In this document: one piece after another, positions 21,571 to 30,462 of the stretch
Position numbering within the stretch: position 1 is the stretch's first letter
Layout of the letters: each line of letters opens with the position of its first letter
NCBI GenBank assembly: GCA_031119395.1
Contig: JAVHYA010000009.1
Location: 27,098 to 91,097, forward strand
Direction: 5' to 3'
DNA: 64,000 bases
Source of the DNA: Pseudomonadota bacterium
GTDB lineage: Bacteria > Pseudomonadota > Gammaproteobacteria > Burkholderiales > Burkholderiaceae_C
Made by a program: the position numbers and the translations under genes
The notes under the pieces: generated by a model
Databases searched by the model: none
Told to the model about the DNA's origin: nothing
Seen by the model: only the letters and a program-made list of their open reading frames with translations

Positions 21571-23580
21571 TCAGCTGGCCAGCAGCGACTTCGGCTGGGC
21601 CAGGCGGTCGGCGTGCATCCAGGCGCGGCGCAGCACGGCGGGCGAGCGCGACTCCTCGGGGATCAGCAGGAAGTTCGCTTCGCGCATGCTGGTCCCCAGC
21701 GCGATCTGGCTGGTCACGACGGCCATCGGAATGGCCAGCAGCAGGGGCAGGGCGACGGGCATCAGCCACACCAGGGCACTGGCGTCGATGAGGGCCACGG
21801 CCACACCCAGGGCCGCCACGATGCCGCTCATGGGCAGCAGGCGGGCGGCGGCTTCGCGCCACGGCACGGCGGCGGCTTCCCGCGGGGGCGACTTCCATTC
21901 CAGCTTGATGCCGGTCAGGGCCACGACCACGAAGAGCGAATGGGCCAGCATGCGCACGGGGGCCTGGACGATCGCCATGGCGCTCTCGAGCACGGCGCTC
22001 TTGAGCAGGCTGGCCACGCCGCCGTATTGCTTCTGCTCGCCGCGCATCAGCACGGCCGTGATGCCCAGGATGCGGGGCAGGAACAGCAGGCACAGGGTCC
22101 ACAGCCACAGGCCGGCCAGCTCCATCGGCATCACCATCCAGTGCTCGACCAGGCTCGAGCCGGTCAGCCACAGGGCGGTGCCCAGGGTCAGGAAGGCCAG
22201 CCACAGGGGTGCCGACACATAGGCCATGGTGCCGGTGACGAACATCGCGCGGTGGACCGGGGCGATGCCGGGTTCGGCCATCAGGCGGGCGTTCTGCAGG
22301 TTGCCCTGGCACCAGCGGCGGTCACGCTGCAGTTCGGCCAGCAGGTCCGGCGGTTGCTGCTCGTAGCTGCCGACCAGGTCGGACACCAGCCACACGTGGT
22401 AGCCGGCACGGCGCATCAGGGCGGCCTCGACGAAGTCGTGCGACATGATGCCGCCCGACATGCCGCCGGTGCCCTTGATCGGGGCCAGCGCGCAGTGCTT
22501 CATGAAGGGCTCGACGCGGATGATGGCGTTGTGGCCCCAGTAGTGCGACTCGCCGAGCTGCCAGAACTGCATGCCCAGGGTGAACAGGCGGCCGGTCACG
22601 CGGCTGGCGAACTGCTGGGCGCGGGCGTGCAGCGTCACGTGGCCGATGGCCTGCGTGGCGGTCTGGATGATGCCGGCGCTCGGGTTGGCTTCCATCAGCT
22701 TGACCATCGAGGTCAGGCAGTCGCCGCTCATCACGGAGTCGGCGTCGAGCACGACCATGTAGCGGTAGTCCTTGCCCCAGCGGCGGCAGAAGTCGGCCAC
22801 GTTGCCGGCCTTGCGGTGCGTGCGGCGGGTGCGCAGGCGGTAGTAGACCTCGACCTGCGGCTGGTTGGGGTGCTCGGCCAGGGCGGCGCGCAGCTCTTCC
22901 CAGGCGGCACGTTCGGCCTTGGCGATGTCGGGGTTGTAGCTGTCCGACAGCACGAACACGTCGAACTGCTGTGCGTGGCCGGTGTTGGCCACCGATTCGC
23001 AGGTGGCGCGCAGGCCGGCGAACACGGTGGCGACGTCCTCGTTGCAGATCGGCATGATGATCGCCGTGCGTGCCTCGGGGTTCATCGGATGATTCGCCAC
23101 CTGCTTGGCCGACAGCGCGTGCTTGTCGCCGCGCACCGAGACGTAGAAGCCCATCAGCGCCGTCACGAAGCCGGTCACGACCCAGCCGGAGAGCAGGCCG
23201 TACAGGCCGATCTGGCCGTACTCGAGCCAGAGGTTGTCGTAGTCGGGCTGCACCTGAGCGAACAGCGTCGAGGCCATCACCGTGCTGAGCAACGCCAGCA
23301 GCATGAAGACCGCGCGGCGCTGCTTGGCGGCGCGTTCCCAGGGCTGCTTCGGGAAATGCGCGACCTCGGGCGCCGACTGGCGGCCGCCCGCGCCGAGCTT
23401 GAGCAGCAGGGCCGTGCCGATGCTGTTCCAGAACCCGCGCCAGGGACGCGGCGTCATCGAGCCGCGGTTGACGGGCGGGGCCGTGACCGAGTTCGGGTGG
23501 CGCTCTTCGCGTACCGGGCTGCGGTGCGAGAAGTCGGCCGGGGTCAGGACCTTCAGCTGGGAGAATTCGTTCGGCTTCAT
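21571..23580 (-). CDS. opgH: Glucans biosynthesis glucosyltransferase H (GT2)
   Basis: IMPICNED, RKAGNVADFC, VLDADSVM, YWGHNAIIR, SHDFVEAALM, QRDRRWCQGN; GAAGGA RBS before MKPNEF. Confidence 0.93.
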   Translation of the reverse strand: MKPNEFSQLKVLTPADFSHRSPVREERHPNSVTAPPVNRGSMTPRPWRGFWNSIGTALLLKLGAGGRQSAPEVAHFPKQPWERAAKQRRAVFMLLALLSTVMASTLFAQVQPDYDNLWLEYGQIGLYGLLSGWVVTGFVTALMGFYVSVRGDKHALSAKQVANHPMNPEARTAIIMPICNEDVATVFAGLRATCESVANTGHAQQFDVFVLSDSYNPDIAKAERAAWEELRAALAEHPNQPQVEVYYRLRTRRTHRKAGNVADFCRRWGKDYRYMVVLDADSVMSGDCLTSMVKLMEANPSAGIIQTATQAIGHVTLHARAQQFASRVTGRLFTLGMQFWQLGESHYWGHNAIIRVEPFMKHCALAPIKGTGGMSGGIMSHDFVEAALMRRAGYHVWLVSDLVGSYEQQPPDLLAELQRDRRWCQGNLQNARLMAEPGIAPVHRAMFVTGTMAYVSAPLWLAFLTLGTALWLTGSSLVEHWMVMPMELAGLWLWTLCLLFLPRILGITAVLMRGEQKQYGGVASLLKSAVLESAMAIVQAPVRMLAHSLFVVVALTGIKLEWKSPPREAAAVPWREAAARLLPMSGIVAALGVAVALIDASALVWLMPVALPLLLAIPMAVVTSQIALGTSMREANFLLIPEESRSPAVLRRAWMHADRLAQPKSLLAS

Positions 23581-23594
23581 GGACGCAGTCCTTC

Positions 23595-23795
23595 TTACCA
23601 ACGTTGCTTGGACGAGGGGGTGTCGCCGATGGACGGGAAGCGCTTGAACACGCTGTCCGTGGCGTTGCCGTTCGCCGCGCTCAGCGCGCCGAGGGCCTGG
23701 CCGGCGGCGCGGGGCCGCGCGGCGTGAATGTGTTTCTGACGCGCGCCATCGCGCTGCGGACGCAGTGCGAAAGAGGGGCTGGTGAGAGTGCTCAT
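23595..23795 (-). CDS. Putative 66-aa small protein upstream of opgH
   Basis: MSTLTSPSFALRPQRDG...FKRFPSIGDTPSSKQRW; high GC3 in the distal two-thirds; ATG coincides with the predicted sigma54 +1. Confidence 0.5.
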   Translation of the reverse strand: MSTLTSPSFALRPQRDGARQKHIHAARPRAAGQALGALSAANGNATDSVFKRFPSIGDTPSSKQRW

Positions 23796-23806
23796 GCCCA
23801 CAAGGC

Positions 23807-23822
23807 TGCAAAGCCTGTGCCA
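23807..23822 (-). promoter_or_regulatory. Sigma54 -24/-12 promoter
   Basis: Minus strand TGGCACAGGCTTTGCA matches TGGCAC-N5-TTGCW exactly. Confidence 0.88.
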
Positions 23823-23841
23823 GAGCAGATTTCTCTTTTTA

Positions 23842-23854
23842 AATCAACGGCTTA
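23842..23854. promoter_or_regulatory. IHF binding site 1
   Basis: AATCAACGGCTTA matches WATCAA-N4-TTR, with an AT-rich flank. Confidence 0.72.
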
Positions 23855-23916
23855 GGCTGATTTTTCGGCCGTTTTTCGGCCCATTTCAGGGCTAACGGCC
23901 CGAAAGCCCCTGTTTT

Positions 23917-23934
23917 TGTCGCCGCAGCCCGACA
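23917..23934. promoter_or_regulatory. Candidate GlrR-type upstream activator site 1
   Basis: TGTC-GCCGCAGCCC-GACA (TGTC-N10-GACA). Confidence 0.7.
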
Positions 23935-23966
23935 GGTCCAGACCGGGGACGATCGATTTCCAATGA

Positions 23967-23979
23967 AATCAACAACTTA
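23967..23979. promoter_or_regulatory. IHF binding site 2
   Basis: AATCAACAACTTA matches WATCAA-N4-TTR. Confidence 0.72.
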
Positions 23980-23983
23980 GGCC

Positions 23984-24001
23984 TGTCGCTACTCGGCGAC
24001 A
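23984..24001. promoter_or_regulatory. Candidate GlrR-type upstream activator site 2, overlapping the glrR stop codon
   Basis: TGTCGC-TACTCG-GCGACA (TGTC-N10-GACA). Confidence 0.7.
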
Positions 24002-25398
24002 GCGTCGCCGGCCCCAGCGACACCCTCCGCCTTGAAATGGCCTGGAGTGAGTTCATGCTTCTGCAGCAGGCGGTAGAACTCCGTGCGGTTGCGGTCCGCC
24101 AGCCGCGCGGCATCGGCGACGTTGCCGTCGGTGAGTTTCAGCAGGCCTACGAGGTATTCGCGTTCGAAGCGCTGCTTGGCCTCGGCGTAGGTCTGCACTT
24201 CGACGGACGGCACCCGCAGGGCGCGCTGGACCAGCGCCAGCGGGATCAGCGGCGAACTCGACAGCGCGCACACCTGCTCGACCACGTTGAACAGCTGTCG
24301 GACGTTGCCCGGCCAGGGAGCGGTGGTCAGCGCCTTCAGCGCCTCGGGGGCGAAGCCCGACAGCCGCTTGCCGTACTTGCCGGCCAGGCGCTGCAGGAAG
24401 TGGTTGGCCAGCAGCGGGATGTCCTCCCGGCGCTGCGCCAGCGTCGGCAGCGTGAGGGTGACGACGTTCAGGCGGTAGTACAGGTCCTCGCGGAACTGGC
24501 CGCTCTCCATCGCCACGTCCAGGTCGCGGTGTGTCGCCGAGATGATGCGCACGTCGACCGGGAAGGTCTGCGTCGACCCCACCGGTCGAACGGCCCGCTC
24601 CTGCAGCACCCGCAGCAGCTTGACCTGCAGGGCCGGCGGCATGTCGCCGATCTCGTCGAGCAGCAGCGTGCCGCCGTCGGCCTGCTGGAACAGGCCCTTG
24701 TGGTTGGCATGCGCGTCGGTGAAGGCGCCCTTGACGTGGCCGAACAGCTCCGATTCGAGCAGCGCTTCCGGAATGGCGCCGCAATTGACGGCGACGAAGG
24801 GCTTCTTGGCCCGGTCGCTGGCTTTGTGGATGGCGCGCGCCAGCACCTCCTTGCCGGCACCGGAGTCGCCGCGCAGCAGCACGCTGGCGTCGGTCTTGGC
24901 CACCATGCGGGCCTCGGCCAGCACCTCGGCCATCCGGCTGGAGCGGCTGACGATCTCGCTGCGCCAGCTTTCGTCGCCCGCCGCGGCCGGCGTGGCTGCG
25001 GGCGCGCCCAGCGCCAGCGCCTGCTGGATCTTGTCGAGCAGCTCGCGCGCCTCGTAGGGCTTGGTGAGGTAGGTGAACACGCCGCGCGCCGTCGCCTCCA
25101 CCGCATCGGGGATCGTGCCGTGCGCGGTGAGCAGGATGACGGGCAGCGTCGGGTGCCGCTTGCGGATCTCGTCGAACAGCTGCAGCCCGTCGCGTCCCGG
25201 CAGCTTGACGTCGCTGAGCACGAGGCGCGGGTGCTCGATTTCCAGTTGCGTGAGGGCCGACTCCGCCGAGGTCACGGCCGTGACCTGGTAGCCCGCGCCC
25301 TGCAGGCGCAGCGACAGCAGGCGCAGCAGGTCGGCGTCGTCGTCGACGACCAGGATGCGGGCGCCGTTGCCGGGCGACGCTGCGGGCGAGTCGGCCAT
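23989..25398 (-). CDS. glrR: Sigma54-dependent response regulator (GlrR/QseF-like)
   Basis: Receiver (ILVVDDD, LTAHGTIPDAVEAT); AAA+ GDSGAGKE, ELFGHVKGAFTDA, LLDEIG, WPGNVRQL; C-terminal HTH GNVADAARLADRNRTEFYRLL. Confidence 0.88.
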   Translation of the reverse strand: MADSPAASPGNGARILVVDDDADLLRLLSLRLQGAGYQVTAVTSAESALTQLEIEHPRLVLSDVKLPGRDGLQLFDEIRKRHPTLPVILLTAHGTIPDAVEATARGVFTYLTKPYEARELLDKIQQALALGAPAATPAAAGDESWRSEIVSRSSRMAEVLAEARMVAKTDASVLLRGDSGAGKEVLARAIHKASDRAKKPFVAVNCGAIPEALLESELFGHVKGAFTDAHANHKGLFQQADGGTLLLDEIGDMPPALQVKLLRVLQERAVRPVGSTQTFPVDVRIISATHRDLDVAMESGQFREDLYYRLNVVTLTLPTLAQRREDIPLLANHFLQRLAGKYGKRLSGFAPEALKALTTAPWPGNVRQLFNVVEQVCALSSSPLIPLALVQRALRVPSVEVQTYAEAKQRFEREYLVGLLKLTDGNVADAARLADRNRTEFYRLLQKHELTPGHFKAEGVAGAGDAVAE

Positions 25399-26080: not shown

Positions 26081-27520
26081 TCAGGCGGAGCGCGGCAGTT
26101 CGATGCGAAAACGTGCACCAGGGCCATCGGACGCGCTGTTGTTCAGCAATTCGATCCGGCCGCCATGGGCTGCAATGTACTCCTGCACGATGGACAGGCC
26201 GATGCCAGTGCCTTTCACGGCGTGCTCGGGCTGACGCTCGCCGCGGAAGAAGGGCTCGAAGATGCGGTCGCGGTCCTCGGCGGCGATGCCCGGCCCGGCG
26301 TCGGCCACCTCGATGATGGCCAGGTCGGCCGTGCTGGAGACGGTGAACTGGATCGTGCCGCCGCGCGCCGAGAAACGGATGGCGTTGGACAGCAGGTTGG
26401 CCAGCACGGTGCCGATCTTCACCGGGTCCACCACCACCGAGATCGGTTCGCCTTCGGCGCGCACCGTCAGGCCCTGCGCCTGCCACTGCAGGCGCTGCGC
26501 CTCGATCTGCTGCTCGATCAGCGGCAGCAGCGGCGTGCGCTGGCGGCTGAGCTGGCGGGCCTCGAAGGCGGCGGCATTGAAGCGCAACAGCGCCTCGATC
26601 TGCCCCTGCAGCGCCAGCGTGTTCTGGTTCAGGATCTGCGCCACCTCGCGCTGCGCGGGCGTGAGCGCGCCGGTCACGCCGTCCTCCAGCAGCGACACGC
26701 CCTCGCGCAGTGCGGCCAGCGGCGTCTTGAGTTCATGCGAGACGTGCCGCAGGAAGCGTGCCTTGTCGGCGTCCAGTTCCATCAGCCGCAGCCGCAGCCA
26801 GTCCAGCTCCTGCGACACGCGCCGCACGTCGGCCGGGCCGCGGATGTCGATGGGCTCCTCGAGCCGGTTCTCGCCCAGGCCGTGGATCGCGCGTTCCAGC
26901 CGTTTGAAGGGCCGTGCCAGCCAGATGCCGAAGGCCAGCGCCATCGCGATCGCCAGGCCGCTGGCCGCGATCACCTGCTGCATCAGGCGGCGGCGCGCGC
27001 GCTCCAGCCGCTCGGCCAGGGCGTTGTTCTGCGTCTCGATGAGGAACTGCGCCTGCTGCGCGATCTGGGTGTTGAGGGTGTCCAGTTCGCGGAACTGGAT
27101 CGCCATCGAGCCCTCGCGCGAGAGGGCGGTGTCCTGCGGCCCGTTCATCAGGCCTTCGATCACGCCGAGCTGCGAGCGCCACTGCTCGGCCGATTGCGGC
27201 AGCAGGCCGTTGTCGACCAGCCGCTGCACCACGGCCTGCGCATCGCGCGCCGCGTCGTTGAAGCGGCGGCGCAGCACGGCGTCGTTGAGCACCAGCGACT
27301 GGCGGCCCGAGCGCTCCATGGCCGCGCTGCGCTCGGCCAGCGTCTGCGCCGCACCCGACAGCTGCAACGCGCTGCGCGCGGCATCACGGCTTTGCACGAT
27401 CAGCTTGTCGTACTGCGACATGGCGCGCAACACCACGCCCAGCAGGAGCGCGGTGATGAGCAGGAAGGCGAAGAGCAGCAGCTGCTGGAAGGAACCGCGC
27501 GCGCGGTGACGGGTGGGCAT
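26081..27520 (-). CDS. glrK: Sensor histidine kinase (GlrK/QseE-like)
   Basis: Two TM segments and a HAMP domain; RHVSHELKTPL; NLLSNAIRF, DAGPGI, FEPFFRG, GTGIGL. Confidence 0.88.
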   Translation of the reverse strand: MPTRHRARGSFQQLLLFAFLLITALLLGVVLRAMSQYDKLIVQSRDAARSALQLSGAAQTLAERSAAMERSGRQSLVLNDAVLRRRFNDAARDAQAVVQRLVDNGLLPQSAEQWRSQLGVIEGLMNGPQDTALSREGSMAIQFRELDTLNTQIAQQAQFLIETQNNALAERLERARRRLMQQVIAASGLAIAMALAFGIWLARPFKRLERAIHGLGENRLEEPIDIRGPADVRRVSQELDWLRLRLMELDADKARFLRHVSHELKTPLAALREGVSLLEDGVTGALTPAQREVAQILNQNTLALQGQIEALLRFNAAAFEARQLSRQRTPLLPLIEQQIEAQRLQWQAQGLTVRAEGEPISVVVDPVKIGTVLANLLSNAIRFSARGGTIQFTVSSTADLAIIEVADAGPGIAAEDRDRIFEPFFRGERQPEHAVKGTGIGLSIVQEYIAAHGGRIELLNNSASDGPGARFRIELPRSA

Positions 27521-29538: not shown

Positions 29539-30462
29539 TCAGCCGGCCGCCATGTCGGGCAGCGCGCCCTTCGCTGCCGGCACCAGGATCCGCTGCACCG
29601 GCGGCGCTCCGGTGGCCGGCCGGGACGCCGGCCGGCCGCTGGCCACGCGCCGCACCCAGTCGCCGACCTCGTCCAGGAAGGTCTGCTGGCTCTGCAGCGA
29701 GGTCAGCGTGTGGTCGATCTCGCCGATGAAGCGGTATTCGAGCTGCCTGGCGAAGGGCTCGGCGGCCACGGGCCCGAGCTGGTCGCGCCCCAGGTCGCGC
29801 ACATGCAGCGTGCCGGTGTACATCACGAACACGGCCACGCCACGCTCGACCAGCTGCCGGACGGTATTGGTGAAGTAGCGCCGGGTTTCCTCGATCGGCT
29901 CGTCGTCGAAGAGCTGTGCCGAGGGCTGCTTGGGGCCCAGCTTGCGCCGCAGCCAGCGCCCGACCTTGCCGTACACCGAGGCATTGCCCGCCAGCGCCAG
30001 CATGCGGCGCAGGTTGCGCTCCATGCGCGCGCGCCGGCCGGGGAAGGCGTAGCTGTCGAACATGAAGAGCCCGACCACGCGCGGATCCACCTCCGCCAGC
30101 GACAGGCCGCGCCCGCCGCCCGAGCACAGGCCGATGACGATGAAGCGCTGGATGCCCAGCGTCGTCTCCAGCAGCTTCATGGCGGCCTGCAGGTCCAGCA
30201 CCGCCTGCTGCGTGAAGCGCTCCTGCCCCTTGGGGGCGCTGCTGTCGCCGAGCCCGGACAGGTCCATGCGCAGGCTGCTGATGCCGTGCTGCGCCAGGTG
30301 GCGCGCAAGCTTCACGTTGATGCGCCGCGGCCCGATGCGGTAGCCCGCTCCCATGTTCAGCATCAGGCACGCCACGGGCGCGGTGTCGCCGCTGGCGGGC
30401 GTGGTCACCATGCCCATCAGCGGGGCGTCTTCGGCGCCGAACAGAATCGGGAACTCTTTCAT
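29539..30462 (-). CDS. Alpha/beta-hydrolase (exosortase-system hydrolase-1-like)
   Basis: SLRMDLSGLGDS; elbow IGLCSGG; C-terminal EIDHTL. Confidence 0.8.
   Translation of the reverse strand: MKEFPILFGAEDAPLMGMVTTPASGDTAPVACLMLNMGAGYRIGPRRINVKLARHLAQHGISSLRMDLSGLGDSSAPKGQERFTQQAVLDLQAAMKLLETTLGIQRFIVIGLCSGGGRGLSLAEVDPRVVGLFMFDSYAFPGRRARMERNLRRMLALAGNASVYGKVGRWLRRKLGPKQPSAQLFDDEPIEETRRYFTNTVRQLVERGVAVFVMYTGTLHVRDLGRDQLGPVAAEPFARQLEYRFIGEIDHTLTSLQSQQTFLDEVGDWVRRVASGRPASRPATGAPPVQRILVPAAKGALPDMAAG

What the first reader, a model, noticed from the sequence alone, without database searches (positions are those of the whole stretch)
23595..24001. Complete glmY-style GlrR/IHF/sigma54 promoter right behind glrR, aimed at a small ORF and opgH
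Seen in sequence, within about 200 bp: TGTC-N10-GACA (23984-24001 and 23917-23934), WATCAA-N4-TTR (23967-23979 and 23842-23854) and TGGCAC-N5-TTGCA (23822-23807, minus strand). Established: in enterobacteria the GlrK-QseG-GlrR system activates the sigma54 promoter of the sRNA GlmY through TGTC-N10-GACA sites with IHF help, controlling envelope precursor synthesis. Inference: the same three-component system and operator logic are wired here to a different envelope output, periplasmic glucan synthesis. Caveat: the activator loop is GAFTDA rather than GAFTGA.
Basis: partly seen in the sequence, partly recalled or inferred. Interest (0 to 1): 0.8.

Follow-up and report, generated by a model that had tools for sequence, protein, structure and literature searches.

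The report
GlrR/sigma-54 promoter driving glucan synthase opgH
In this Variovorax genome a relative of the E. coli envelope sensor GlrK-QseG-GlrR is followed by a promoter built like the E. coli glmY promoter, but it reads into a small gene and the periplasmic-glucan synthase opgH; the same wiring recurs in dozens of related genera, so this sensor very probably controls glucan synthesis there.

Summary
The genes upstream are real relatives of E. coli GlrK, QseG and GlrR. GlrR is 57% identical, GlrK 34%, and QseG is recognisable only by profile comparison (95% probability). The layout ABS-IHF-ABS-IHF-sigma54 matches the E. coli glmY promoter to within 4-9 bp. The genome has rpoN and no GlmY. 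All elements are conserved in 16 of 16 Variovorax species. In a sample of 301 genomes of the family, a strict version of the pattern occurs once each in 22 genomes and never in the reversed control. It is always followed by opgG or opgH. Of 40 further GlrR orthologues, 36 show the same arrangement. RNA contigs from a near-identical strain cover opgH and the small ORF as one piece and stop 16-20 nt short of the predicted start. The ATG of the conserved 66-aa ORF lies exactly where transcription starts in glmY, so the mRNA is probably leaderless. GAFTDA is fixed in the genus and also occurs in a D. vulgaris EBP to which a sigma-54 regulon is assigned. I found no paper on this wiring. No experiment exists. 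Verdict: real, and a new output for a known system.

The parts
26081..27520 (-). glrK/qseE-like sensor histidine kinase (479 aa)
   Evidence: HisKA and HATPase_c domains. 34% identity over 419 aa to E. coli GlrK, E 6e-64; Arg70 and Arg73 are kept, the residues reported to contact QseG (PMC12691602).
25409..26062 (-). qseG-like lipoprotein (217 aa, lipobox LLLVGC)
   Evidence: No Pfam or NCBIfam hit and no significant BLASTP match to E. coli QseG. A profile of beta-type homologues against a gamma/E. coli QseG profile gives 95.4% probability, E 1.9e-8, with a shared C-terminal L..L..IERS motif. The position between the kinase and regulator genes is conserved.
23989..25398 (-). glrR/qseF-like sigma-54 activator (469 aa; REC, AAA+, HTH; loop GAFTDA)
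   Evidence: The best NCBIfam hit is GlrR at 611 bits (cut-off 763); the next is NtrC at 414. 57% identity over 444 aa to E. coli GlrR, with the recognition helix RNRTEFY.LL conserved.
23984..24001 (.). distal GlrR box TGTCGCTACTCGGCGACA, centred about -197, spanning the glrR stop codon
   Evidence: Identical or nearly identical in 16 of 16 Variovorax species.
23967..23979 (+). distal IHF-like site AATCAACAACTTA, directly next to the distal box
   Evidence: Kept in 16 of 16 Variovorax species. It has the same juxtaposition as ABS2 and the IHF site in E. coli glmY.
23917..23934 (.). proximal GlrR box TGTCGCCGCAGCCCGACA, centred about -130
   Evidence: 16 of 16 species. It starts 112 bp before TGGCAC, against 107 bp for ABS3 in E. 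coli glmY.
23842..23854 (+). proximal IHF-like site AATCAACGGCTTA, centred about -52, next to phased A-tracts at 23855-23900
   Evidence: The strict motif is kept in 9 of 16 species and is degenerate in the others.
23807..23822 (-). sigma-54 -24/-12 element TGGCACAGGCTTTGCA
   Evidence: TGGCA[CT]-N5-TTGC is kept in 16 of 16 species. No sigma-70-like promoter lies in 23400-24100. rpoN is present in the genome.
23795..23796 (-). predicted transcription start, at the A of the ATG or one base before it
   Evidence: The A of the ATG is 13 nt after the -12 C. This is the same distance as the annotated 5' end of E. coli GlmY. RNA contigs end at 23744-23780 and do not cross it in six of seven runs.
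23595..23795 (-). conserved 66-aa ORF, probably leaderless; its stop lies 14 nt before the opgH ATG and next to the opgH Shine-Dalgarno
   Evidence: Open in 16 of 16 species; indels come in threes; the ATG offset is fixed. 31 homologues, all 'hypothetical' and named only from Variovorax. Invariant SPSFA.RPQR and D.V.KR.P.IGD.P. Also present in two sister genera. AF2 predicts disorder. The RNA fold is not special, z = -0.34.
21571..23580 (-). opgH (mdoH), glucans biosynthesis glucosyltransferase, 669 aa
   Evidence: NF003960 at 1253 bits against a cut-off of 829; GT2 domains. RNA contigs run continuously from opgH into the small ORF.

Best explanation
This is a GlrR-dependent, IHF-assisted sigma-54 promoter that transcribes one mRNA carrying a small ORF and opgH.

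Shown: the motifs, their conservation, the orthology of the three upstream genes, and co-transcription of the small ORF with opgH.

Inferred mechanism: the outer-membrane lipoprotein QseG activates the inner-membrane kinase GlrK. GlrK phosphorylates GlrR. GlrR~P binds the two TGTC-N10-GACA boxes at about -130 and -197. IHF and phased A-tracts bend the DNA so that the GlrR oligomer touches sigma-54 RNA polymerase on TGGCAC-N5-TTGCA. ATP hydrolysis then opens the promoter.

Transcription should start on the A of the ATG at 23795. Ribosomes would then load on a leaderless 5' AUG, translate the 66-aa ORF and stop 14 nt before the opgH start. This probably couples OpgH translation to that of the small ORF.

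The output of this envelope sensor would therefore be periplasmic glucan synthesis, not the GlmY sRNA. In this genus only opgH is controlled this way.
For: 1. Motifs are at the stated coordinates and far above chance. This is the only promoter in the genome that combines them.
2. GlrR is 57% identical to E. coli GlrR with a conserved recognition helix. GlrK is 34% identical and keeps R70 and R73. QseG matches by profile at 95%.
3. The spacing matches E. coli glmY. Box to box is 67 bp here and 63 bp there. Proximal box to TGGCAC is 112 against 107. The -12 C to the start is 13 in both.
4. All elements are conserved in 16 of 16 Variovorax species, while the sequence between them diverges.
5. A strict pattern occurs once each in 22 of 301 family genomes and never in the reversed control. 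All 22 are followed by opgG or opgH, including one where glrR lies 50 kb away. 36 of 40 further GlrR orthologues have the same arrangement.
6. RNA contigs of a 99.4% identical strain join opgH and the small ORF and end at 23776-23780. Nothing covers the intergenic region. Two other runs end at 23744-23758.
7. rpoN and an IHF-alpha-like gene are present. GlmY is absent. No sigma-70-like promoter was found.
8. An ATG at +12 to +15 after TTGC occurs in about 45 of 62 loci and usually opens OpgG or OpgH itself.
Against: There is no experimental test of rpoN, glrR or IHF dependence, and no GlrR binding data. The RNA evidence consists of assembled contigs from a related strain at low depth, so the 5' end is known only to within about 20 nt. 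Absence of read-through from glrR is not proven. One mixed run (X31) has contigs across the promoter. The loop is GAFTDA rather than GAFTGA, and no activity data exist for a GlrR with this loop. There are two boxes instead of three. The proximal IHF-like site meets the strict motif in only 9 of 16 species. GlrR scores below the NCBIfam equivalog cut-off (611 against 763). Translation of the small ORF is inferred only: the excess of synonymous change is modest and the product is predicted to be disordered.
Confidence: 0.85

Rival explanations
1. The sigma-54 promoter is real, but the region from 23796 to 23581 is an untranslated leader. The 66-codon frame would be open by chance in 70% GC DNA, and opgH would be translated only from its own Shine-Dalgarno.
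For: Long open frames are common at 70% GC. The codon-position bias is modest at 65/50/74 changes. There is no family hit. AF2 shows no fold. opgH has its own GAAGGA Shine-Dalgarno.
Against: The frame is open in 16 of 16 species while the other frames carry stops. Indels come in multiples of three, and the ATG sits at a fixed offset. Residues are invariant in two motifs with a free centre across 24 cluster representatives. The ORF is kept, with more divergence, in two sister genera. 46% of single-difference codon pairs are synonymous. The RNA fold is not special and there is no Rfam hit. In other genera the same ATG opens OpgG or OpgH itself.
Confidence: 0.25
2. The boxes and promoter are not a GlrR target. 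Another sigma-54 activator would drive the promoter. The palindromes at the end of glrR would serve something else, such as autoregulation or termination of the glrKGR operon.
For: The distal box overlaps the glrR stop codon. The GAFTDA loop is untested in GlrR. The genome has other sigma-54 promoters, so it must encode other activators.
Against: The box sequence and spacing are those bound by E. coli and Yersinia GlrR (PMC3045617), and the recognition helix is conserved. The boxes travel with the opg promoter even where glrR is 50 kb or 1.5 kb away. The strict pattern occurs only once per genome and only in the subset of family genomes that carry a GlrR orthologue. No hairpin with a T-run lies on the minus strand.
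Confidence: 0.05
3. The promoter is a decayed relic in Variovorax. The G-to-D change would have inactivated GlrR as a sigma-54 activator, and opgH would now be expressed from another promoter.
For: GAFTDA occurs only in Variovorax among the orthologues examined. For VfmH, which carries GAFTDA, no sigma-54 interaction was detected (PMC10714721).
Against: A dead system would not keep perfect -24/-12 elements, both boxes and the fixed ATG in 16 of 16 species while the intervening DNA diverges. RNA contigs end just inside the predicted start. No sigma-70-like promoter was found. GAFTDA is listed among variants expected to keep activity, and D. vulgaris DVU2106, which carries it, is assigned a sigma-54 regulon (PMC4641369).
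Confidence: 0.05

Closest known systems
GlrR(QseF)/IHF/sigma-54 promoters of the sRNA genes glmY and glmZ in Enterobacteriaceae (Goepel et al. 2011, PMC3045617)
   Same: Both have a consensus -24/-12 element and TGTC-N10-GACA activator boxes more than 100 bp upstream. WATCAA-N4-TTR sites flank the proximal box. The box-to-box and box-to-promoter distances agree within 4-9 bp, and the distance from the -12 C to the start is the same.
   Different: There are two boxes instead of three; the third, ABS1, is dispensable in E. coli. The promoter lies downstream of glrR rather than upstream of glrK. No overlapping sigma-70 promoter is present. The product is an mRNA for a small ORF and opgH, not an sRNA. 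GlmY is absent from the genome.
GlrK(QseE)-QseG-GlrR(QseF) three-component system (E. coli and Salmonella; reported as widespread in Pseudomonadota, PMC12691602)
   Same: The gene order is kinase, lipoprotein, regulator. GlrR is 57% identical and GlrK 34%. The QseG-contacting arginines are kept. QseG is related at profile level and shares the C-terminal motif.
   Different: QseG is too diverged for BLAST or Pfam. The sigma-54 contact loop is GAFTDA. The output gene is different. glnB is not downstream.
opgGH (mdoGH) operon of E. coli and other Proteobacteria
   Same: OpgH is a clear equivalog (1253 bits). The function would be synthesis of the osmoregulated periplasmic glucan backbone.
   Different: Here opgH stands alone behind a small ORF, and opgG/D is unlinked. 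Transcription is predicted to be sigma-54 and GlrR dependent. From my own knowledge, the transcriptional regulator behind osmoregulation of E. coli opgGH is not established.
Other GlrR-adjacent sigma-54 promoters in Burkholderiales seen here
   Same: A GlrR orthologue is followed by GlrR boxes and a sigma-54 element that reads into an envelope gene.
   Different: The targets there are BON/OsmY-like, glycine-zipper or EF-hand periplasmic proteins, with ordinary Shine-Dalgarno leaders. They are not OPG genes.

Membership tests
GlrK-QseG-GlrR (QseEGF) three-component system | Regulator with REC, sigma-54 AAA+ and HTH domains that is orthologous to GlrR | tested here: met
   57% identity over 444 aa to E. 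coli GlrR. The best NCBIfam family is GlrR at 611 bits, against 414 for NtrC.
GlrK-QseG-GlrR (QseEGF) three-component system | Score above the NCBIfam GlrR equivalog cut-off (763 bits) | tested here: not met
   611 bits. The model is trained on enterobacterial sequences, so by this criterion the protein is a diverged orthologue, not an equivalog.
GlrK-QseG-GlrR (QseEGF) three-component system | Kinase related to GlrK/QseE, with the arginines that contact QseG | tested here: met
   34% identity, E 6e-64. MERSGRQ aligns with MERSYRQ, so R70 and R73 are kept (PMC12691602).
GlrK-QseG-GlrR (QseEGF) three-component system | A lipoprotein gene homologous to qseG between the kinase and regulator genes | tested here: met
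   It has a lipobox and the right position. hhalign gives 95.4%, E 1.9e-8. Pairwise BLAST and Pfam are negative.
GlrK-QseG-GlrR (QseEGF) three-component system | Canonical GAFTGA loop for contact with sigma-54 | tested here: not met
   The loop is GAFTDA in all 16 Variovorax species; other genera have GAFTGA or GSFTGA. A D. vulgaris EBP with an assigned sigma-54 regulon carries the same variant (PMC4641369).
GlrR-dependent sigma-54 promoter (glmY/glmZ type) | -24/-12 element TGGCAC-N5-TTGCW | tested here: met
   A perfect match at 23822-23807, conserved in the genus.
GlrR-dependent sigma-54 promoter (glmY/glmZ type) | TGTC-N10-GACA boxes more than 100 bp upstream (three in glmY; ABS2 and ABS3 matter most) | tested here: met
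   Two perfect boxes at -130 and -197, with no third box even at one mismatch. Their spacing resembles ABS2 and ABS3.
GlrR-dependent sigma-54 promoter (glmY/glmZ type) | IHF sites flanking the proximal box | tested here: met
   Two WATCAA-N4-TTR sites, the only ones in 64 kb. An IHF-alpha-like gene scores 116.9 bits against a cut-off of 120.25. IHF binding itself was not tested.
GlrR-dependent sigma-54 promoter (glmY/glmZ type) | Activity depends on rpoN, glrR and IHF, and GlrR binds the boxes | not testable with these tools
   This needs genetics and EMSA.
GlrR-dependent sigma-54 promoter (glmY/glmZ type) | The product is the sRNA GlmY or GlmZ | tested here: not met
   No Rfam hit in 23000-24600. 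RF00128 is absent from the genome. The transcript carries an ORF and opgH.
OpgH/MdoH glucosyltransferase | Score above the NCBIfam equivalog cut-off | tested here: met
   NF003960 at 1253 bits against 829.
Leaderless mRNA | Transcription starts at or within a few nt of the start codon, with no Shine-Dalgarno | tested here: inconclusive
   The ATG is 13 nt after the -12 C, the same as the GlmY start. About 45 of 62 family loci keep an ATG there. RNA contigs end 16-20 nt short. No 5'-end mapping is available.

The most novel reading that the evidence does not exclude
QseEGF may be an ancestral homeostat of the periplasm. The QseG-GlrK pair, which bridges the outer and inner membranes, would sense a property of the periplasm or envelope that OPGs themselves set. 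GlrR would switch OPG synthesis on through a leaderless sigma-54 mRNA, which closes a feedback loop. On this reading, GlmY control in Enterobacterales is a later rewiring. In Variovorax the disordered 66-aa peptide would be a detached N-terminal extension of OpgH that still acts on OpgH, either in trans or through translational coupling.
Probability: 0.25. Interest if true: 0.75.

Novelty: new variant of a known kind. Interest (0 to 1): 0.55.

Why it matters
How bacteria control synthesis of osmoregulated periplasmic glucans at the level of transcription is poorly understood. The physiological signal and output of the QseEGF (GlrK-QseG-GlrR) system outside enterobacteria are not described in the papers I could search. 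This locus gives a simple one-promoter link between the two. It is conserved in roughly 50 genera of Comamonadaceae-type bacteria and can be tested with ordinary genetics in Variovorax laboratory strains. It also offers a natural set of sigma-54 promoters that apparently make leaderless mRNAs, a fixed GAFTDA variant of the sigma-54 contact loop, and a possible case of an N-terminal protein extension splitting off as a small ORF.

Tried and rejected
- **Rfam:** scanning 23000-24600 gave nothing, and GlmY (RF00128) is absent from the genome. A GlmY-like sRNA is therefore rejected.
- **Leader RNA structure:** folding the leader gave z = -0.34, so there is no sign of a structured riboregulator.
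- **Origin of the small ORF:** tblastn of the small ORF against opgG/opgH loci of other genera gave only low-complexity noise. It is not a remnant of opgG.
- **Small ORF families and fold:** hmmscan against Pfam and NCBIfam found nothing. AF2 gave pLDDT 60 with no secondary structure, so I ran no fold search.
- **QseG by pairwise search:** BLASTP of the lipoprotein against E. coli QseG was not significant. Only the profile comparison worked.
- **Wider regulon:** relaxed scans of the genome found only weak, chance-like pairs. opgG/D has no such motifs.
- **Third GlrR box:** none, even at one mismatch.
- **RNA data:** all available runs are assembled contigs, not reads, so the 5' end could not be mapped exactly. 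Run X31 is a mixture and uninformative.
- **Literature:** searches for opgH or OPG with sigma-54 or RpoN, Variovorax with RpoN, and QseG in Betaproteobacteria found no report of this wiring. The Vogesella two-component paper was unrelated.

Full report
**1. The observation**

I read the window from 23300 to 24400. On the minus strand the order is as follows:
- A histidine kinase (27520-26081).
- A lipoprotein with the lipobox LLLVGC (26062-25409).
- An NtrC-type regulator (25398-23989).
- A 193-bp intergenic region.
- A 66-codon ORF (ATG 23795, stop 23597-23595).
- opgH, 14 nt further on (ATG 23580, stop 21571).

- **GlrR boxes.** TGTC-N10-GACA lies at 23917-23934 and 23984-24001. There are three matches in 64 kb against 0.57 expected.
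- **IHF-like sites.** WATCAA-N4-TTR lies at 23842-23854 and 23967-23979. These are the only two matches in the window, against 0.12 expected.
- **Sigma-54 element.** TGGCACAGGCTTTGCA lies on the minus strand at 23822-23807 and is the only perfect match in the window.

In the whole 5.1 Mb, 70% GC assembly there are 13 perfect sigma-54 consensus sites. Only this one has TGTC-N10-GACA upstream. The genome holds 55 such boxes, and only two pairs lie closer than 200 bp. A relaxed scan gave nothing else convincing. The regulator's sigma-54 contact loop reads GAFTDA.

**2. The genes**

- **OpgH.** It is unambiguous: NF003960 at 1253 bits against a cut-off of 829.
- **The regulator.** It has REC, sigma-54 AAA+ and lid/HTH domains. 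Its best family is GlrR at 611 bits. That is under the enterobacterial equivalog cut-off of 763 but well above NtrC at 414. It is 57% identical to E. coli K-12 GlrR over 444 residues, including the recognition helix RNRTEFY.LL.
- **The kinase.** It is 34% identical to GlrK over 419 residues (E 6e-64). It keeps Arg70 and Arg73, which a cryo-EM study found to contact QseG (PMC12691602).
- **The lipoprotein.** It has no Pfam or NCBIfam hit and no significant BLASTP match to QseG. A lipoprotein gene sits in this position next to nearly every GlrR orthologue I collected from beta- and gammaproteobacteria, and these share a C-terminal L..L..IERS motif. A profile of the beta-type proteins matches a profile of gamma-type QseG, E. 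coli included, at 95.4% probability, E 1.9e-8.

So the three-component system is real. That qseEGF clusters occur in Betaproteobacteria has already been published (PMC12691602). Their outputs there have not been described in anything I could find.

**3. Comparison with the glmY promoter**

Goepel et al. describe three TGTC-N10-GACA boxes more than 100 bp upstream of glmY, with two IHF sites flanking ABS3. ABS1 is dispensable (PMC3045617). I read the E. coli K-12 promoter directly.

| Distance | E. coli glmY | This locus |
|---|---|---|
| ABS2 to ABS3 (box to box) | 63 bp | 67 bp |
| ABS3 (proximal box) to TGGCAC | 107 bp | 112 bp |
| ABS2 (distal box) to TGGCAC | 170 bp | 179 bp |
| -12 C to transcript start | 13 nt (annotated GlmY 5' end) | 13 nt (to the A of the ATG) |

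In both organisms the distal box is followed within 1-4 nt by the IHF-like TAA(C/G)TNNTTGATT. The architecture is therefore glmY-like in detail, minus ABS1.

By analogy with GlmY, transcription should begin on the A of the ATG at 23795.

The genome has rpoN and an IHF-alpha-like gene at 116.9 bits against a cut-off of 120.25. It has no GlmY. There is no sigma-70-like promoter in 23400-24100.

**4. Conservation within the genus**

The genus is Variovorax, judging by names. In 16 of 16 species sampled the following are kept at the same positions, while the DNA between them diverges:
- both GlrR boxes,
- the distal IHF-like site,
- TGGCA[CT]-N5-TTGC,
- the ATG 13 nt after the -12 C.

The proximal IHF-like site meets the strict motif in 9 of 16. 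GAFTDA is present in all 16. Orthologues in other genera have GAFTGA or GSFTGA.

**5. Conservation across the family**

I searched 301 genomes of the same family, covering 201 genera, with a strict pattern: box, N40-60, box, N80-110, GGCAY-N5-TTGC. It occurs in 22 genomes (18 genera), exactly once in each. The reversed control pattern never occurs.

All 22 are followed by opgG (10) or opgH (12). In one genome glrR is 50 kb away from the promoter and in another 1.5 kb away, yet the boxes stay with the opg promoter.

A protein search found GlrR orthologues in 70 of the 301 genomes (51 genera). I fetched the DNA downstream of 40 of those that lacked the strict pattern. In 36, a sigma-54 element and boxes with 0-1 mismatch are followed by opgG (20) or opgH (16). 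Together with L017, about 59 of 63 orthologues are wired to OPG genes.

Named examples from another collection are Hydrogenophaga, Rhizobacter and Pseudorhodoferax. Outside this family, GlrR orthologues in Burkholderiales are followed by sigma-54 promoters that read into BON/OsmY-like, glycine-zipper or EF-hand periplasmic proteins. In Enterobacterales the downstream genes are nadE and glnB, with no promoter of this kind.

**6. RNA evidence**

No raw reads were available, only assembled contigs.
- In four RNA runs of a strain 99.4% identical over this stretch, a single contig joins opgH to the small ORF. It ends at 23780, 23776, 23701 or 23598. Nothing covers 23800-24460.
- Two other runs end at 23758 and 23744.
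- One deep, mixed run (X31) has contigs across the promoter from diverged organisms and says nothing either way.

This fits one mRNA that begins at or just upstream of 23780 and does not come from glrR read-through. It does not fix the start to the base.

**7. The small ORF and the leaderless start**

Evidence that the ORF is translated:
- It is open in all 16 species (66-71 codons), while the other frames carry stops. Indels come in threes.
- It has 31 homologues in the large protein collection, all called hypothetical. Every source name is Variovorax.
- It also occurs, more diverged, in two sister genera (L130-L132).
- Across 24 cluster representatives, SPSFA.RPQR near the N-terminus and D.V.KR.P.IGD.P near the C-terminus are invariant, while the middle varies freely.
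- Of codon pairs differing at one position, 46% are synonymous. The minimum changes per codon position are 65, 50 and 74.

Evidence on its nature:
- AF2 predicts no secondary structure (pLDDT 60, pTM 0.13).
- The RNA does not fold better than shuffled sequence.

I put translation at about 70-75%.

The ATG at the predicted start is not peculiar to Variovorax. About 45 of the 62 family loci have an ATG 12-15 nt after TTGC. In most it is the start codon of OpgG itself, followed by a clear signal peptide, or of OpgH with an N-terminal extension.

In two genera (L115, L121) a long N-terminal extension runs in frame from that ATG into the conserved OpgH core. It is colinear with the Variovorax small ORF plus the OpgH N-terminus and resembles it over the first eleven residues or so. 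A reasonable but unproven reading is that the Variovorax ORF is a detached N-terminal extension of OpgH. It would be kept because ribosomes enter the mRNA at the 5' AUG, and the stop 14 nt before the opgH start couples the two translations.

**8. The GAFTDA loop**

A study of D. vulgaris lists GAFTDA among loop variants expected to keep activity. It assigns DVU2106, which carries GAFTDA, a sigma-54 regulon (PMC4641369). For VfmH of Dickeya, which also has GAFTDA, no sigma-54 interaction was detected and the effect of G to D was left open (PMC10714721). Here the variant is fixed in a genus that also keeps a perfect promoter and boxes. That argues that it works.

**9. Novelty and caveats**

Full-text searches found no paper that links OPG genes with sigma-54 or with GlrR/QseF.

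Earlier AI notes from this scan on other genomes reached the same reading for opgGH, for leaderless opgG and for a glycine-zipper target. They are not independent evidence. My own survey reproduced their main claims.

What is specific to this window:
- opgH alone is wired. opgG/D lies on another contig without the motifs.
- The small ORF is interposed between the promoter and opgH.
- The loop is GAFTDA.

Everything rests on sequence comparison and RNA contigs. Dependence on rpoN, glrR and IHF, binding of GlrR, the exact start and translation of the small ORF remain to be tested.

Noticed in passing
family loci L108-L169; window 23795: An ATG lies 12-15 nt after the TTGC of the sigma-54 element in about 45 of 62 GlrR/opg loci. 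It usually opens OpgG (with a signal peptide) or OpgH directly. Sigma-54 promoters that make leaderless mRNAs therefore look like a conserved trait of this family.
   Followed up: partly
window 23855-23900: Phased A-tracts about 11 nt apart (minus strand GAAAAACGGCCGAAAAATCAG) lie between the proximal GlrR box and the proximal IHF-like site. They may add an intrinsic bend. They are partly conserved in the genus alignment.
   Followed up: no
L120 (G206:C47) and L123 (G162:C56): In two genera the GlrR-box/sigma-54/opgG unit is not adjacent to glrR (50 kb and 1.5 kb away) yet keeps perfect boxes.
   Followed up: partly
L115, L121 compared with window 23595-23795: In some genera OpgH carries a long in-frame N-terminal extension from the leaderless ATG. 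It is colinear with the Variovorax small ORF, which suggests the ORF arose by splitting of that extension.
   Followed up: partly
own genome, contig C102 near position 2320 (outside the window): A second copy of the identical 16-nt sigma-54 core TGGCACAGGCTTTGCA lies upstream of an ORF beginning MAKAVLTISSKN. It has no GlrR boxes.
   Followed up: no
own genome C83:66699-68159 (L026): The only MdoG-family gene (opgG/D) is unlinked to opgH and has no sigma-54 or GlrR motifs upstream. The two OPG backbone genes therefore appear to be controlled differently in Variovorax.
   Followed up: partly
window 30243-30260: A third TGTC-N10-GACA match lies inside a hydrolase gene with no sigma-54 element nearby. 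It is probably chance.
   Followed up: no
G226, G261, G321: Some family genomes carry two GlrR-like genes, one at 73-83% and one at 56-60% identity. The second clade may be the one tied to other envelope targets.
   Followed up: no
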